Shown piece by piece: positions 27,865 to 39,745 of a DNA stretch of 64,000 bases. A model generated the notes under the pieces. The model was not told the origin of the DNA and searched no databases. It saw only the letters and a list, made by a program, of their open reading frames with translations. Both the position numbers and the translations under genes were made by a program. Numbering within the stretch: position 1 is the stretch's first letter; each line of letters begins with the position of its first letter. Source of the DNA: Escherichia phage EK8; the sequence record PQ805430.1. One strand, given 5' to 3'.

Positions 27865-27879
27865 GAGGCGCTATGCGCC
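27865..27879 (-). promoter_or_regulatory. candidate hairpin promoter (GC stem, TAT loop)
   Basis: AGGCGC-TAT-GCGCCT, ~65 nt upstream of 27801 start. Confidence 0.3.
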
Positions 27880-27881
27880 TT

Positions 27882-28230: not shown

Positions 28231-28245
28231 ACGCGCTATGCGCGT
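28231..28245 (-). promoter_or_regulatory. candidate hairpin promoter (GC stem, TAT loop)
   Basis: ACGCGC-TAT-GCGCGT, ~70 nt upstream of 28163 start. Confidence 0.3.
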
Positions 28246-32383: not shown

Positions 32384-32443
32384 ACGAGCAGACCGGTTAA
32401 AATAGTCATAATTAATACCTCTGGTTTAAATGGAATCACCCGA

Positions 32444-32456
32444 CTCGCTATGCGAG
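32444..32456 (-). promoter_or_regulatory. candidate hairpin promoter (GC stem, TAT loop)
   Basis: CTCGC-TAT-GCGAG in intergenic gap, ~35-60 nt upstream of next gene start. Confidence 0.3.
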
Positions 32457-32471
32457 CCAGGTTTTGATTAT

Positions 32472-33026
32472 TTATGCACGGATGACAAGTTGCATGTCTG
32501 GTACAGTCAAAGCAGCGTTCGTGTCCTGCACGTAGACTGCGTTATGTGGGTCACCCTCTTCCAGTGTCTTCTGTAACTTTTGACGACCACCATACGCATA
32601 TCCCTGGGCCATATAGAACAGAGTACCATCAGGTAGGTCACCAAACCGCTCCACACGCGGTAAATCGCTTGCACCTACATCAACTACAGGCAGATTGAGT
32701 TCAGTCGCTCTGTGAGCGATACAGGCGCTTTTAGAGGGATTGACCATCTCGCTACGCTCAATGGTCGCTTCGCTGCACTTCATGCAATTACAAGCATCAC
32801 CACATACAGATAAGTCAGTAAGTGGTTTGATTGGACGACAGAACTCAATAACATCTGACCAGCCATCTACAGGCTCATTATCACCGTGGAACAGTGTGAT
32901 GTAGTGGAAGTCAGATTCACGCTGTCCTAACAGCCATGCGTATACAGATGCTTTATCTTCAAACTCTTTCTCTGTCGAGTGAGTTGCATCAAAGGTCAGA
33001 TAGTCCAGTACGAATAACGTAGTCAT
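32472..33026 (-). CDS. first early protein (Cys-rich)
   Basis: ATG 33026 with GGAG RBS (track start 33095 alternative); CGDACNCMKCSE Cys cluster; first gene of leftward unit. Confidence 0.5.
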   Translation of the reverse strand: MTTLFVLDYLTFDATHSTEKEFEDKASVYAWLLGQRESDFHYITLFHGDNEPVDGWSDVIEFCRPIKPLTDLSVCGDACNCMKCSEATIERSEMVNPSKSACIAHRATELNLPVVDVGASDLPRVERFGDLPDGTLFYMAQGYAYGGRQKLQKTLEEGDPHNAVYVQDTNAALTVPDMQLVIRA

Positions 33027-33122
33027 AGTATGTCTCCAATAAGTTAAGTGTATTACTTCACTTAAAGTGCTATGCACTACTACCGGTCGTAACACTACGG
33101 TACTACGTACCTACGTGTTACT

Positions 33123-33174
33123 GACTAACCAATACTTCGTACTACGCTTCGCTACGTACTCGTATTGGTTAGTC
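33123..33174. repeat. perfect 13-bp inverted repeat flanking a 26-nt TACG-rich core
   Basis: GACTAACCAATAC (33123-33135) and GTATTGGTTAGTC (33162-33174); spacer TTCGTACTACGCTTCGCTACGTACTC. Confidence 0.6.
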
Positions 33175-33202
33175 TTACATCCCTAGTTATGTATACACAT
33201 AC

Positions 33203-33384
33203 TAATAGTAAGGTTATTAGATATAAGGTAGATATGAGTTATAGATATAGGATAGGTATAGGTATAGAGATAGTAGTTGATAGGGTATAGGTAGAGATAA
33301 GTGATATAGATATAGATAAAGTAGTAGTAAGAGTAAGTAGTAACAAAGTAGTAAGTAAGTAGAGATAGTAGTAACAGGTAGATA
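33203..33384. repeat. strand-asymmetric low-complexity tract almost devoid of C on the plus strand
   Basis: ~180 nt of GTA/TAG/GATA-type units with only two C residues by manual count. Confidence 0.6.
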
Positions 33385-33461
33385 CTAAACATAAGTAAGT
33401 AGTGTTTTACTCAGTAAATACATCCTAATCTCTGTCAACCTTTTCCACTAATATAAATTTC

Positions 33462-33476
33462 CGATAAGGGTTATCG
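33462..33476 (-). promoter_or_regulatory. hairpin with 3-nt purine loop (candidate promoter/regulatory element)
   Basis: CGATAA-GGG-TTATCG upstream of leftward early unit. Confidence 0.25.
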
Positions 33477-33610
33477 ATAAAAGTGGTATAGGAAACTTAC
33501 TGTATGATTTCTGACCGTCATACCTAGCGCGAGTAAAAGCTGTAAAGTTTTGGTAACTTATAGCGCGCCTTACTGTCTCAGTGGTGAGTTGTGTAATGTG
33601 TAATTGTGTA

Positions 33611-33641
33611 GAAAAGAAATAGCCTACTCCGAAGAGTAGGC
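33611..33641 (-). terminator. rho-independent terminator (minus strand)
   Basis: 8-bp stem GCCTACTC/GAGTAGGC, CGAA loop, A-run on plus side. Confidence 0.6.
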
Positions 33642-33648
33642 ATTGATG

Positions 33649-33903
33649 TTATGCAGTAGCAGTAGCTGATGCAGCCAGAGCTTTGACTTGGTTATCAAGC
33701 TCAGACTTAGCTGCGTTGTAAATCATCTGGTCTTTGATTTCGATGAGTTCACCGAAGCGTTTAGCTTTGTTCTCTGCTACCTTAGCCAGCTCATCACCAG
33801 CAGTAGCCAGACGATTGACTGCGGTTGCAGTTGTGGTGACAGTGGATACGGTTGCAACTACAGCACCAGTGAGAGCAGCGAACAGACCTTGTGGTTGGGA
33901 CAT
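33649..33903 (-). CDS. hypothetical protein (84 aa, Ala/Thr-rich)
   Basis: stand-alone ORF with its own terminator inside the switch region. Confidence 0.45.
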   Translation of the reverse strand: MSQPQGLFAALTGAVVATVSTVTTTATAVNRLATAGDELAKVAENKAKRFGELIEIKDQMIYNAAKSELDNQVKALAASATATA

Positions 33904-34217
33904 GAGTAATACTCCATAGCTATTGGATTAATGTAAGGGATGAAGGCATCTCACCTTCAAGACTCTGAAGCCTCCCACATCGCAGAGCTACGATTGTGGG
34001 TGCATACATGTGATTAATCTCAAGCAGACAATGTATGAAAACACTGAATGAGATGGATACGTATATCCATATGATGGCCTATGGCCTGAATTGTGTAAGG
34101 CGTAGTAAGAATCCTTTTTCAGCCAGCACTATGGAGGGGGTATCCACCCAAAGCTACAGCCAGAGTAGTAAGTTGAGCACTCGTACCTAAATTAAAAAAT
34201 TTTATAAAAGTTTTCCC

Positions 34218-34418
34218 TTAAACTTTTTTATCTCTATCCAGCGGAGCTATCCTGTTTACCCACCCTTCAAACTTATCCCTGAGTTTATCCATACCGTTCC
34301 AAATACTTTCAAAGATATAAGCAAGCACTAACGCTATACCACCCACCAACCATATCACTAACCAAACTGGCAGCAGAGAGATACGGATAGCCTTGCTCTT
34401 GGTACTCATGCGATACAT
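34218..34418 (-). CDS. small membrane protein
   Basis: 66 aa; hydrophobic LLPVWLVIWLVGGIALVLAYIF. Confidence 0.4.
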   Translation of the reverse strand: MYRMSTKSKAIRISLLPVWLVIWLVGGIALVLAYIFESIWNGMDKLRDKFEGWVNRIAPLDRDKKV

Positions 34419-34506
34419 AAAATTTTCCTCATAAAATTTTTAAAAATTGCCCAACCTTTCGACCCTATTTATACTCTGGCTTAGAACCTATAGGGAGACT
34501 ATATCA

Positions 34507-35193
34507 ATGGCATTGCTCGATTTAAATACACTCAAAGCTGCGTTGCCTGACAACATCCGTAAGACTATCACTGATGAAGTGTTGAATGGGATTAACGCTG
34601 CTGTGGCTGACCCCCAGTTTTACGAGTATTACCGTAACAACCTGTTGAGCTATGGCCATGTGCTGAAAGAAGGGAAGTTTACGGTTAAGCAGTACAGTGC
34701 AGCAGTCCGGTATGTGTCGTATAAGCTGATGGGCTTAACGAACCAGGAAGCGTGGATGAAGACCTTCCCGGACAAGTATGCGTACTTCGCTCAGAAGGGC
34801 ACCAGTGCAAAAGACATTTCAAGTTACGTCCATGCGTACCATAATACTAAACTGGTAAACCTGGTAATGGAGCAGTCGCTTGTTCCTGTGCATGTGGTAG
34901 GCCGTGACCTGTTCTGGAAAGCTCTCAACGTTCAGGCTGAGTTAATGGTCAGTGCTACCAGTGAAAAGGTACGCAGCGATGCTGCGAACAGCGTACTGAA
35001 CACGTTGCGCCCGCCTGAGACTAAGAAGATGGAACTGGATATCAACCACAAGGACGATGGTACGCTGGAGGCGTTGCGTGCTGCTACGCAGGCTCTGGTA
35101 GACCAGCAATCGAATGCGATTGCTAGTGGGACAGTAACAGCAGGGCAGGTGGCCGCGTACCGTGTCATTGAAGCGGAGAAACTCGATGAGTAA
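34507..35193 (+). CDS. hypothetical protein, possible terminase small subunit (position only)
   Basis: ATG 34507 with GGGAG RBS (track start 34447 is TTG); first gene of rightward late unit, upstream of terminase large subunit. Confidence 0.35.
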   Translation: MALLDLNTLKAALPDNIRKTITDEVLNGINAAVADPQFYEYYRNNLLSYGHVLKEGKFTVKQYSAAVRYVSYKLMGLTNQEAWMKTFPDKYAYFAQKGTSAKDISSYVHAYHNTKLVNLVMEQSLVPVHVVGRDLFWKALNVQAELMVSATSEKVRSDAANSVLNTLRPPETKKMELDINHKDDGTLEALRAATQALVDQQSNAIASGTVTAGQVAAYRVIEAEKLDE

Positions 35194-39198: not shown

Positions 39199-39274
39199 TG
39201 GATGGGGTATCTGGATTCGAACCAGAGAATGCCGATATCAAAGACCGGTGCCGTAACCACTTGGCTATACCCCA
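39199..39274 (-). tRNA. tRNA-Gln (anticodon UUG)
   Basis: hand-folded cloverleaf: acceptor TGGGGTA/TACCCCA, anticodon loop CTTTGAT, T-arm CTGGTTCGAATCCAG, encoded CCA; close to E. coli tRNA-Gln as recalled. Confidence 0.8.
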
Positions 39275-39279
39275 GAAGG

Positions 39280-39355
39280 TGGCGATGGGATGGAGATTCG
39301 AACTCCAATGTCGCGGATTAACAGTCCGGTGCTTTACCGAGTTAGCTATCCCATC
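39280..39355 (-). tRNA. tRNA-Asn (anticodon GUU)
   Basis: hand-folded: acceptor GATGGGA/TCCCATC, anticodon loop CTGTTAA, T-arm TGGAGTTCGAATCTCCA, discriminator G and encoded CCA; 5-nt spacer to tRNA-Gln. Confidence 0.8.
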
Positions 39356-39464
39356 TTATTAATTAAGACACTCTGTTACCTGCCGATCCATGTGGCTGCA
39401 TGGAATGATAACACACTGAGATTAGGGTATGAGCCTGTTCAATGTTGAGTGTCCTAATTAATAA
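39356..39464. repeat. 18-bp inverted repeat (17/18) enclosing a 73-nt spacer, abutting tRNA-Asn
   Basis: TTATTAATTAAGACACTC (39356-39373) vs complement GAGTGTCCTAATTAATAA (39447-39464). Confidence 0.5.
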
Positions 39465-39745
39465 GCCCCCTGTAAAGCCGGGGGGGCAACTCCGAGTTCG
39501 GTAATCTGGTTCTGGTTCCAGAGCACTCCAGGTATTAAGCCTTTGTGCAGGGACGGGTCACTGCCCGTATTATCAAATCGTATTCCCAAAGTAGAACATG
39601 GTTCTTAGTCGCTGGCGTCACCGGTGCTTCTAAGCATCAACACACTCGTAAGTATGTTCAGGTTTAAAAGCTCCCCCATCGCTGAGGGAGAAAATTGATA
39701 ATGCAGGTGGTGTAAGTTAAGTATTACCGCACCCGCAGCCAGATA

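What the first reader, a model, noticed from the sequence alone, without database searches (positions are those of the whole stretch)
33090..33175. Perfect 13-bp inverted repeat with TACG-rich core immediately upstream of the first early gene
GACTAACCAATAC (33123-33135) and its exact complement (33162-33174) flank a 26-nt core; the preceding 30 nt carry further TACGTA-type palindromic units. It lies ~100-150 nt upstream of the first early gene and is the most symmetric element in the window. Candidate roles: early promoter/operator, replication origin, or terminus-proximal recognition site.
Basis: seen in the sequence. Interest (0 to 1): 0.55.

Follow-up and report, generated by a model that had tools for sequence, protein, structure and literature searches.

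The report
Extra hairpin beside phage early promoter
The perfect 13-bp inverted repeat is real, but it is a 58-bp insertion found only in this N4-like phage: a second, diverged copy of a conserved DNA hairpin next to the first early promoter, not the promoter or a conserved control site.

Summary
GACTAACCAATAC (33123-33135) and its exact complement (33162-33174) flank a 26-nt core. It is the longest perfect short-range inverted repeat in the window, and about 7% of random 64-kb sequences contain one as good.

The window is a circularly permuted Cbunavirus-like (N4-like) phage genome. Its early genes run leftward on the minus strand.

The repeat ("E") is absent from about two dozen relatives, including the nearest one. 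It is a 58-bp lineage-specific indel.

The N4-type early promoter hairpin is elsewhere, at 33066-33078 (AGTGC-TAT-GCACT).

The "TACGTA-rich" 30 nt next to E form a different, conserved 33-nt hairpin, "H" (33089-33121). Its outer stem covaries.

E is a diverged paralogue of H. It has the same strand orientation and shares 8-mers found nowhere else on that strand. Its stem segments are separated by the same pyrimidine mismatch loops. Its apex module is found in another lineage's H.

On the minus strand every family member is capped by a C-GNA-G or GCG(N)NAGC mini-hairpin; in E the cap is GCGAAGC. Known sites with this cap are N4 vRNAP promoters and primase priming sites.

Most likely the family is a single-strand or cruciform DNA signal, and E is an accessory, dispensable copy. 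Its function is inferred, not shown.

The parts
33123..33135 (.). Left arm of hairpin E (GACTAACCAATAC)
33136..33161 (.). 26-nt core of E. On the + strand it reads TTC-GTAC-TAC-GC-TTC-GC-TAC-GTAC-TC, which gives inner stems GTAC/GTAC and GC/GC separated by TAC/TAC and TTC/TC mismatch loops.
   Evidence: The 8-mers GTACTACG and CTACGTAC occur on the + strand only here and in H.
33146..33152 (-). Apex of E. It is GCTTCGC on the + strand and GCGAAGC on the - strand, the mini-hairpin heptamer identical to the template-strand heptamer of the coliphage N4 P1 promoter.
   Evidence: PMC13037366; PMC4496689
33162..33174 (.). Right arm of E (GTATTGGTTAGTC)
33175..33180 (.). TTACAT tail. Together with the 52-nt hairpin it makes up the 58-bp indel that is absent from relatives. 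The boundary is ambiguous by 1 nt.
   Evidence: alignment A1; comparison with L008
33089..33121 (.). Conserved hairpin H: GTAACAC-TAC-GGTAC-TAC-GTACC-TAC-GTGTTAC. The 7-bp outer stem covaries. The inner 5-bp stem and the TAC loops are conserved.
   Evidence: (5 of 7 outer pairs changed on both sides, 98% paired)
33066..33078 (+). Predicted vRNAP early promoter hairpin P1 (AGTGC-TAT-GCACT on the template strand). The predicted start is near 33061, with transcription running leftward.
   Evidence: (GenBank CB4 promoter annotation on the homologous hairpin); stems covary in relatives
32475..33026 (-). First early gene after the terminal repeat (184 aa, no Pfam match)
33203..33343 (+). Context: a C-free, 11-nt/6-nt periodic repeat array between the hairpins and the predicted terminal-repeat boundary

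Best explanation
The 13-bp inverted repeat is the outer stem of a 52-nt segmented DNA hairpin, 'E'. E arrived in this phage lineage as a 58-bp insertion directly next to a conserved 33-nt hairpin, 'H'.

E is a diverged second copy of H. Both consist of Watson-Crick stem segments interrupted by mismatch loops. The loops carry the same pyrimidine words (TAC, TC, TTC) on both arms of the + strand, and the apex reads C-T(N)NC-G.

The same hairpins on the minus strand carry tandem GA/GTA/GAA mismatches and a C-GNA-G cap. In E the cap is GCGAAGC, the very stable DNA mini-hairpin.

Shown here:
- The family acts as a single-stranded or cruciform DNA structure, not as a double-stranded protein-binding palindrome or a coding sequence.
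- E is neither the early promoter nor conserved.

Inferred:
- The family is a supercoil-extruded hairpin signal at the first-injected genome end, of the kind on which an RNA-synthesising enzyme (virion RNA polymerase or a primase) starts.
- Its more stable face is on the strand opposite the early-gene template.
- E is an accessory, dispensable extra copy of that signal.
For: E is lineage-specific:
- It is absent at the homologous site in CB1, CB3/CB4, Kc283, SABI, Possum, Nepra, phiA41 and about 15 metagenomic relatives, while the flanks align.
- None of the 10 contigs returned (of 18 on record) that encode the identical terminal-repeat protein carries it.
- There is no match to E in the phage records by BLAST, nor in the viral or genome contigs by exact-pattern scan.

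E is related to H:
- GTACTACG and CTACGTAC each occur twice on the + strand of the 64-kb window, once in H and once in E.
- A covariance model built only from H variants ranks E as its best non-self hit in the whole window, on the same strand (14.8 bits).
- E's apex CTACGCTTCGCTACG equals the H apex of contig L047 (CTACGCTTACGCTACG) apart from 1 nt.
- CTACGTACTCG is shared with the H of L021.

H is a real structure:
- It has four outer-stem versions, all paired. Five of 7 pairs change on both sides, none on one side only, and 0 of 500 shuffles reach the observed score.
- In L018/L042 the inner arms are swapped but the TAC loops are kept.
- Every relative except the P0018 group and N4 has exactly one significant hit, always in the same orientation.

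Strand asymmetry:
- In all 13 family hairpins the minus strand folds more stably.
- 84% of the unpaired + strand bases are pyrimidines.
- All minus-strand apices fit C-GNA-G or C-GNNA-G.

Known uses of that cap are N4 vRNAP promoters and primase priming sites (PMC4496689; PMC13037366; N4 sequence).

Other lineage-specific hairpins of the same design sit nearby in CB3/CB4 and in contig L016.
Against: - No transcript, binding or replication data exist for this phage, so the function is inference.
- The 13-nt perfect arms alone are only marginally non-random (6.7% of simulations).
- The covariance-model hit on E is not significant window-wide (E 0.27).
- The similarity of E to H could partly reflect convergent GTAC/TAC composition.
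- E fails N4 promoter rules on either strand. Its apex stem is 2 bp, there is no C at +1, and the central loop base on the early-gene template strand is a pyrimidine.
- The relatives sampled (cultured isolates among them) lack E, which shows it is not needed.
- The indel boundaries are ambiguous. The right arm may be homologous to native sequence in SABI-like phages, so 'insertion of a whole hairpin' versus 'local inverted duplication' is unresolved.
Confidence: 0.6

Rival explanations
1. E is a functionless by-product: a palindrome created by replication template switching or by recombination between co-infecting phages that carry different H variants. It is tolerated in a non-coding leader and is neutral.
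For: - It is present in one lineage only.
- This leader is an indel and mosaic hot spot. There are different first genes after P1, a 21-nt insert in Nepra, and 42- and 50-nt hairpin inserts in CB4 and L016.
- E's right arm resembles native sequence of SABI-like phages.
Against: - Three independent lineage-specific inserts all obey the same detailed design: a GAC...GTC stem, pyrimidine mismatch loops on the + strand, and a C-GNA-G cap on the - strand.
- That pattern argues for selection on the structure or a directed copying process, not for random palindromes.
- A perfect 13-bp stem shows no decay.
Confidence: 0.3
2. H, and possibly E, are additional virion-RNA-polymerase early promoters in tandem with P1, driving leftward early transcription. 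This is how Buttimer et al. listed the H inner hairpin (promoter Porf1_2).
For: - The H inner hairpin GGTAC-TAC-GTACC has a 5-bp stem, a 3-nt loop and a central purine on the early-gene template strand.
- It is listed as a putative promoter in PMC6027278 Table S4.
- LUZ7 has two strong early start sites 33 nt apart (PMC9163698), and the loop centres of P1 and H are 33 nt apart (33072 and 33105).
Against: - Four hairpins of ≥5 bp in the early region share GC-TAT-GC, and a 4-bp GGCC-TAT-GGCC hairpin lies in the terminal repeat. H has a different loop and closing context.
- The H stem sequence flips in L018/L042.
- No conserved C lies 11 nt from the loop centre.
- The covarying 7-bp outer stem is unnecessary for a promoter.
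- The P1-H spacing is 21 nt in L018/L020 and about 210 nt in L044.
- E's apex has a 2-bp stem and a central T on that strand.
Confidence: 0.15
3. The hairpins, together with the adjacent C-free repeat array, are part of the machinery that makes genome ends. They would be a cruciform or nicking site and a terminase recognition array next to the terminal-repeat boundary, as proposed for the repeat arrays and hairpin intermediate at T7 concatemer junctions.
For: - They are single copy per genome.
- They lie 230-330 nt inside the predicted terminal-repeat boundary, next to an 11-nt periodic array that is conserved in all relatives.
Against: - The position of the hairpin relative to the boundary varies between relatives.
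- The P0018 group keeps the array but has no H.
- The terminal-repeat limits in relatives are read-depth estimates only (PMC6027278).
- The T7 analogy is from my own recall and was not tested.
Confidence: 0.1
4. E is a miniature mobile element (MITE-, REP- or IS200-end-like) that transposed into the leader.
For: - It shows presence/absence polymorphism.
- It has terminal inverted repeats.
- There is a possible short duplication (TTACT ... TTACAT).
- The CB4 insert has a GTAG 5' of the hairpin on the minus strand, as REP elements do.
Against: - It is single copy in the window and in every genome examined.
- There are no copies in phage, viral-contig or bacterial-genome collections.
- The duplication is imperfect.
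- The GTAG is not conserved in the window or L016 elements.
- No transposase is nearby.
Confidence: 0.05
5. E works as RNA (an RNase III site, terminator or leader structure), or as a duplex operator for a dimeric repressor.
For: It is a long stem with internal loops, upstream of an operon.
Against: - It lies upstream of P1 and downstream of a strong terminator (33641-33622).
- There is no T-run after the stem on either strand.
- There is no Rfam match.
- Family stems never use G-U-type one-sided changes.
- GNA triloops are DNA-specific stabilisers.
- Half-site sequences change freely while pairing is kept, and the mismatch loops break dyad symmetry in a strand-specific way. That is not expected for a dimer-bound duplex.
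Confidence: 0.05

Closest known systems
Coliphage N4 virion-RNA-polymerase early promoter hairpins (P1, P2, P3)
   Same: - Both are small DNA hairpins at the first-injected genome end that function in single-stranded or extruded form.
- Both have a C-GNA-G cap with a sheared G-A pair. E's minus-strand apex GCGAAGC is identical to the N4 P1 template-strand heptamer (PMC4496689).
   Different: - In E and H the GNA cap is on the strand that is not the template for the early genes.
- E's apex stem is 2 bp, not 5-7 bp.
- There is no C at +1.
- E has extra long outer stems with mismatch loops.
- E is not conserved.
- This phage's own promoter class uses TAT loops.
GCGNAGC / GCGNNAGC mini-hairpins at single-strand priming sites (G4, St-1 and alpha3 complementary-strand origins; RSF1010 ssiA bound by RepB' primase)
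   Same: - The cap motif is identical: E has GCGAAGC, the CB4 insert has GCGTAGC, and the L047 H has GCGTAAGC on the minus strand.
- In both cases the cap sits on a larger hairpin in a non-coding region (PMC13037366).
   Different: - Those sites are on ssDNA phage or plasmid strands with demonstrated priming.
- Here the genome is double-stranded and no priming is shown.
- There is no sequence similarity beyond the cap.
Putative hairpin promoter 'Porf1_2' of Pectobacterium phages CB1/CB3/CB4 (Buttimer et al. 2018)
   Same: It is the inner hairpin of H (GGTAC-TAC-GTACC), the conserved neighbour and paralogue of E.
   Different: - The published note covers only the 13-nt inner hairpin, as a promoter prediction.
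- The covarying outer stem, the family of variants and the extra copies (E, the CB4 insert, the L016 insert) are not described there.
Short repeat arrays and the hairpin intermediate next to the T7 terminal repeat (from my own knowledge of Dunn & Studier 1983 and Chung & Hinkle 1990; not checked here)
   Same: Both have a short-period repeat array directly inside a direct terminal repeat, with a nearby palindrome.
   Different: The phage family is different, there is no sequence similarity, and the role is untested.
Bacterial REP/BIME palindromes and MITEs
   Same: Both are 40-60-nt imperfect palindromes with compensated stems and presence/absence polymorphism.
   Different: E is single copy, confined to one locus of one phage group, has no associated transposase, and has no host copies.

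Membership tests
N4-type vRNAP early promoter | Hairpin with a 5-7 bp uninterrupted stem and a 3-nt loop | tested here: not met
   E's apex stem is GC/GC (2 bp) followed by a 3x3 mismatch. P1 (33066-33078) and the H inner stem do meet this feature.
N4-type vRNAP early promoter | Purine at the loop centre (-11) on the template strand of the genes it serves | tested here: not met
   The early genes use the + strand as template, and E's loop there is TTC (central T). On the opposite strand the loop is GAA (central A), but that strand would direct transcription away from the early genes.
N4-type vRNAP early promoter | C at +1 on the template, 11 nt from the loop centre, and G at -8 | tested here: not met
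   With the minus strand as template, -8 is G but +1 falls on A (33160). With the + strand as template, the loop itself fails. P1 and P2 have C at that distance (sequence).
N4-type vRNAP early promoter | Conserved among related phages, with compensated stems | tested here: not met
   E is absent from all relatives.
N4-type vRNAP early promoter | Transcription initiation by vRNAP in vivo or in vitro | not testable with these tools
   No transcript data are available.
H-family segmented hairpin (defined here) | Watson-Crick stem segments separated by mismatch loops carrying the same pyrimidine words on both arms of the + strand | tested here: met
   E reads 13 bp / TTC-TC / GTAC / TAC-TAC / GC. 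The 10 H variants and the 2 other inserts have the same design.
H-family segmented hairpin (defined here) | Apex C-T(N)NC-G on the + strand, which is C-G(N)NA-G on the - strand | tested here: met
   E has GC-TTC-GC / GCGAAGC. All 13 family members fit.
H-family segmented hairpin (defined here) | Located between the terminal repeat and the first post-repeat promoter, in the same orientation | tested here: met
H-family segmented hairpin (defined here) | Detectable by a structure-and-sequence model built from H alone | tested here: inconclusive
   E is the best non-self hit in the window and is on the correct strand, but it scores 14.8 bits, E 0.27 window-wide.
Intrinsic (rho-independent) terminator | GC-rich stem followed by a T/U run | tested here: not met
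   There is no T-run after the stem on either strand. The scan reports only the 33622-33641 terminator.
MITE / REP-like mobile palindrome | Multiple dispersed copies; target-site duplication | tested here: not met
   E is single copy and has no copies in the collections. The flanks TTACT/TTACAT are only an imperfect repeat.
Any Rfam RNA family | Covariance-model match | tested here: not met
   There was no match up to E = 1 in 32400-34600.
Replication origin / single-strand initiation signal | Site-specific start of primer or DNA synthesis | not testable with these tools
   Only the cap motif and the neighbouring repeat array resemble known origins.

The most novel reading that the evidence does not exclude
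The H-family hairpins, E included, would be strand-specific initiation signals on the strand opposite the early-gene template. The virion RNA polymerase or a primase would start on the GNA-capped minus-strand hairpin and synthesise a C-free, purine-rich RNA rightward across the 141-nt array towards the left genome end. That RNA would form a stable primer or R-loop acting as the phage's replication origin. This would link the reported need for vRNAP in N4 DNA replication (my recollection of Guinta et al. 1986; not checked here) to a concrete cis element. Extra copies such as E would tune origin strength.
Probability: 0.12. Interest if true: 0.7.

Novelty: new variant of a known kind. Interest (0 to 1): 0.35.

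Why it matters
For annotation:
- The eye-catching perfect repeat should not be labelled a promoter, operator or origin. It is a non-conserved extra hairpin.
- The real promoter hairpin (33066-33078) and the conserved hairpin H (33089-33121) are its neighbours.

For biology:
- The result separates two hairpin classes in Cbunavirus-like phages. TAT-loop hairpins are the promoters. The second class is fast-evolving, structure-conserved and GNA-capped, with one or two copies per genome at the first-injected end.
- That second class was previously listed as just another putative promoter.
- It is a concrete, testable candidate for a cis element in the poorly understood replication or end-processing of N4-like phages.
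- It also illustrates how DNA hairpin modules are shuffled and duplicated between phage lineages.

Tried and rejected
- BLAST of the 58-bp element against 50,697 phage records found no match.
- Exact scans of viral contigs for the core and for the arms found nothing.
- A degenerate core pattern in viral contigs gave one hit, a chance match inside a high-GC integrase-like ORF.
- An exact core scan of 185,579 bacterial and archaeal genomes found nothing. This rejects a host-derived or multi-copy mobile element.
- Searches for other copies of the arms, of GACTA...TAGTC hairpins or of the inner H hairpin in the window found none above chance.
- BLAST of the CB4 and L016 inserts showed the CB4 insert only in CB3/CB4. 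The L016 insert, which comes from a metagenomic contig, has no match in the phage records. The other hits are chance level.
- The Rfam scan was empty.
- The sigma-70 promoter and terminator scans found nothing at E.
- Pfam on the flanking genes gave no hits.
- A look-up of the exact first-gene protein, meant to find sister genomes, found nothing on record.
- MAFFT misaligned L018 and L047 because of the 8-nt periodicity of H, so they were left out of the covariation count.
- I first took the GGTAC-TAC-GTACC hairpin for the promoter. I revised this after seeing the TAT-loop class and the GenBank CB4 annotation.
- Coding potential of 33165-33392 was dismissed. The ORFs there lie in the low-complexity array and are broken by non-triplet indels in relatives.

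Full report
**What is in the sequence**

The window reads GACTAACCAATAC at 33123-33135 and GTATTGGTTAGTC at 33162-33174. These are exact reverse complements separated by 26 nt.

My scan found no other perfect inverted repeat of 12 nt or more with a loop of 3-60 nt in the 64 kb. In 300 first-order Markov simulations, 6.7% contained at least one perfect 13-nt repeat of that kind. The repeat is real, but length alone is only marginally beyond chance.

A less perfect but longer repeat exists at 39355-39373/39447-39465, with 18 of 19 positions complementary. 'Most symmetric element' therefore holds only for perfect repeats.

**Genomic setting**

The region matches Cbunavirus phages of the family Schitoviridae (N4-like): Pectobacterium CB1/CB3/CB4, phiA41, Nepra and Possum, Kosakonia Kc283 and Enterobacter SABI.

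In CB1 the homologous DNA is the left genome end. It runs, in order:
- a 647-bp direct terminal repeat containing a small membrane-protein gene;
- a non-coding leader;
- the early genes.

The window is a circularly permuted assembly:
- The CB1 record start corresponds to about 34170.
- The repeat-borne gene is 33649-33903 on the minus strand.
- Its terminator is at 33641-33622.
- The predicted inner repeat boundary is near 33400-33410.
- The early genes run leftward on the minus strand from 33026.

**Where the promoter is**

GenBank CB4 annotates as 'N4 early promoter stem-loop' the hairpin that in the window is AGTGC-TAT-GCACT at 33066-33078. A second such hairpin, CTCGC-TAT-GCGAG, lies at 32444-32456.

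I scanned the window for all hairpins with stems of at least 5 bp and 3-nt loops. It found exactly four GC-TAT-GC hairpins. All are on the + strand, which is the early-gene template, and all are in the early region, centred at 27873, 28238, 32450 and 33072. A 4-bp version lies in the terminal repeat at 34076-34086.

- All four hairpins have a central purine and a C-G closing pair.
- In P1 and P2 a C also lies 11 nt from the loop centre.
- These are the N4 rules summarised in PMC4496689.
- Their stems covary between relatives: AGTGC, AGAGC, TACGC and TGTCC.

The promoter is therefore 45 nt left of the finding's repeat, not in it.

**The conserved neighbour, H**

The 'TACGTA-rich' 30 nt before the repeat form a 33-nt hairpin at 33089-33121: GTAACAC-TAC-GGTAC-TAC-GTACC-TAC-GTGTTAC. 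It is present in nearly all relatives.

The outer stem occurs as four versions:
- GTAACAC/GTGTTAC
- GTATACC/GGTATAC
- GTACATC/GATGTAC
- GTGTAC/GTACAC

On a five-sequence alignment, 5 of 7 outer pairs change on both sides and none on one side only. 98% of cells pair, and no shuffle out of 500 reaches the observed score.

In L018 and L042 the inner arms are swapped (GTACC-TAC-GGTAC) while the TAC loops stay on the same strand.

More distant relatives carry longer or shorter versions with the same design:
- L021 and L027, with apex GTGTGTAC-TAC-GTACACAC;
- L041, with apex GTAC-TGC-GTAC;
- L047, with apex GC-TTAC-GC;
- L044, a 64-nt version about 210 nt from the promoter.

A covariance model of H finds exactly one significant hit per relative, always in the same orientation. 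It finds none in the P0018 group or in coliphage N4.

Buttimer et al. listed the inner H hairpin as a putative promoter (PMC6027278 Table S4). They did not describe the outer stem or the family.

**The finding's repeat, E, is a lineage-specific indel**

In the ten-way alignment the window has 58 extra bases, 33123-33180. These are the 52-nt hairpin plus TTACAT. They sit exactly between H and the sequence TCCCT that follows H in every other phage.

The nearest relative, IMG/VR contig 3300038674_000113, has the same H variant and the same first gene. It is 87% and 79% identical over the 300 nt on either side, yet it lacks the insert.

None of the other relatives carries it. These include the 10 contigs returned, of 18 on record, that encode the identical terminal-repeat protein. 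No copy was found in phage records, viral contigs or bacterial genomes.

**E is a diverged copy of H**

On the + strand the core reads TTC-GTAC-TAC-GC-TTC-GC-TAC-GTAC-TC. This gives paired GTAC/GTAC and GC/GC segments separated by TAC/TAC and TTC/TC mismatch loops, the same design as H.

- The 8-mers GTACTACG and CTACGTAC each occur only twice on the + strand of the whole window, once in H and once in E.
- CTACG occurs five times on the + strand within 33095-33156, the only such cluster in the window.
- The H-only covariance model ranks E (33129-33168, + strand) as its best non-self hit in 128 kb of searched sequence. The score, 14.8 bits with E 0.27, is not significant window-wide.
- E's apex CTACGCTTCGCTACG equals the H apex of L047 apart from one base.
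- CTACGTACTCG is shared with the H of L021.

Two other lineages have their own extra hairpins of the same design, about 100 nt further into the leader:
- CB3/CB4: GACTACCT-A-TAC-TC-GC-TAC-GC-TC-GTA-AGGTAGTC;
- metagenomic contig L016: GACATAC-TC-CCTTAC-TC-AC-TAC-GT-TC-GTAAGG-TTC-GTATGTC.

**What the design implies**

Three observations point to a single-stranded or cruciform DNA structure:
- Stems change freely but stay Watson-Crick on both strands.
- There are no G-U-type one-sided changes.
- The mismatch loops carry the same words on both arms of one strand, which breaks dyad symmetry.

This does not fit a duplex site for a dimeric protein or an RNA element.

Across 13 family hairpins:
- 84% of the unpaired + strand bases are pyrimidines;
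- the minus strand is always the more stable fold;
- the minus-strand apex is always C-GNA-G or C-GNNA-G.

E has GCGAAGC, the CB4 insert has GCGTAGC and L047 has GCGTAAGC. These are the 'mini-hairpin' motifs reviewed in PMC13037366. That review places them at primase priming sites of ssDNA phages, at RSF1010 ssiA and at N4 early promoters.

In N4 itself, GCGAAGC (P1) and GCGGAGC (P2) lie on the template strand. In this phage the cap lies on the strand that is not the template of the early genes. If anything starts on it, synthesis would run rightward into the C-free array and towards the genome end. That step is inference only.

**Tests of E against known families**

- As an N4-type promoter, E fails. 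Its apex stem is 2 bp, it has no C at +1, its central loop base on the early-gene template is a pyrimidine, and it is not conserved.
- It has no T-run, so it is not an intrinsic terminator.
- It has no Rfam match.
- It is single copy, with no host copies and only an imperfect flanking repeat, so it is not a MITE- or REP-like element.

**Verdict**

The repeat is an accessory, dispensable, lineage-specific extra copy of a conserved hairpin family. The family itself is the more interesting object. The C-free, 11-nt periodic array next to it (33203-33343) also deserves attention.

Function is not shown. I rate four readings of function. The first three concern the family; the fourth concerns E itself:
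- a hairpin initiation or structural signal with E as a spare copy: most likely;
- a tandem early promoter, for H: plausible;
- end processing: plausible;
- a neutral palindrome, for E itself: a serious rival.

Noticed in passing
window 33203-33343 (array about 33195-33400): A 141-nt run without a single C on the + strand, by far the longest single-base-free run in the window (the next is 44 nt). It is made of GGTATAG/TAGATA-type units with periods 6 and 11. It is conserved as a C-free array in all relatives, including those that lack hairpin H, and it abuts the predicted terminal-repeat boundary. It could be iterons, a terminase site or a bending array.
   Followed up: partly
window 27866-27880, 28231-28245, 32444-32456, 33066-33078; also 34076-34086: Four GC-TAT-GC hairpins (5-6 bp stems), all on the + strand and all in the early region, plus a 4-bp GGCC-TAT-GGCC hairpin in the terminal repeat. 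They are the likely virion-RNA-polymerase promoter set of this phage. The loop is TAT rather than the GRA of coliphage N4.
   Followed up: partly
window 39355-39373 / 39447-39465: A 19-nt inverted repeat (18 of 19 Watson-Crick, fully paired with one G-T on the minus strand) encloses 73 nt. It lies directly 5' of tRNA-Asn (39280-39355, minus strand) and tRNA-Gln (39199-39274, minus strand). It may be a structured leader or a degenerate tRNA-like element.
   Followed up: partly
loci L018, L020, L021, L042 (relatives), homologous to window 33066-33121: In these phages the outermost stem of H (GCTATGC...GCATAGC) uses the loop and 3' arm of the P1 promoter hairpin. The promoter hairpin and the full H hairpin are therefore mutually exclusive folds of the same strand.
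   Followed up: no
L005 (CB4) 1652-1693 and L016 14750-14799: Independent lineage-specific hairpin inserts of the same design as the finding, placed inside the C-free array. The CB4 insert is shared only with CB3.
   Followed up: yes
window 33622-33641: An 8-bp GC-rich stem with a UUCG loop and a U-run on the minus strand. It is the terminator of the terminal-repeat gene and insulates the leader from upstream transcription.
   Followed up: partly
window about 33400-34170: The window is circularly permuted through a collapsed direct terminal repeat. The homologue of the CB1 record start is at about 34170. The terminase side continues on the + strand to the right.
   Followed up: partly
window 33510-33580: A block inside the terminal repeat (TGACCGTCATACCTAGCGCGAGTAAA...TAGCGCGCCTTACTGTC) is almost invariant across all relatives, although it is non-coding.
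   Followed up: no
L003 (Enterobacter phage SABI) 539-558: GGACTAC-TACTAC-GTAGTCC lies inside an early CDS and scores 22.6 bits with the H model. It may be a chance match or an H-like hairpin in coding sequence.
   Followed up: no
relatives' loci: Different first genes follow the same promoter-hairpin leader in close relatives (proteins of 71, 109, 129, 184 and 195 aa). The leader is a mosaic recombination boundary.
   Followed up: no
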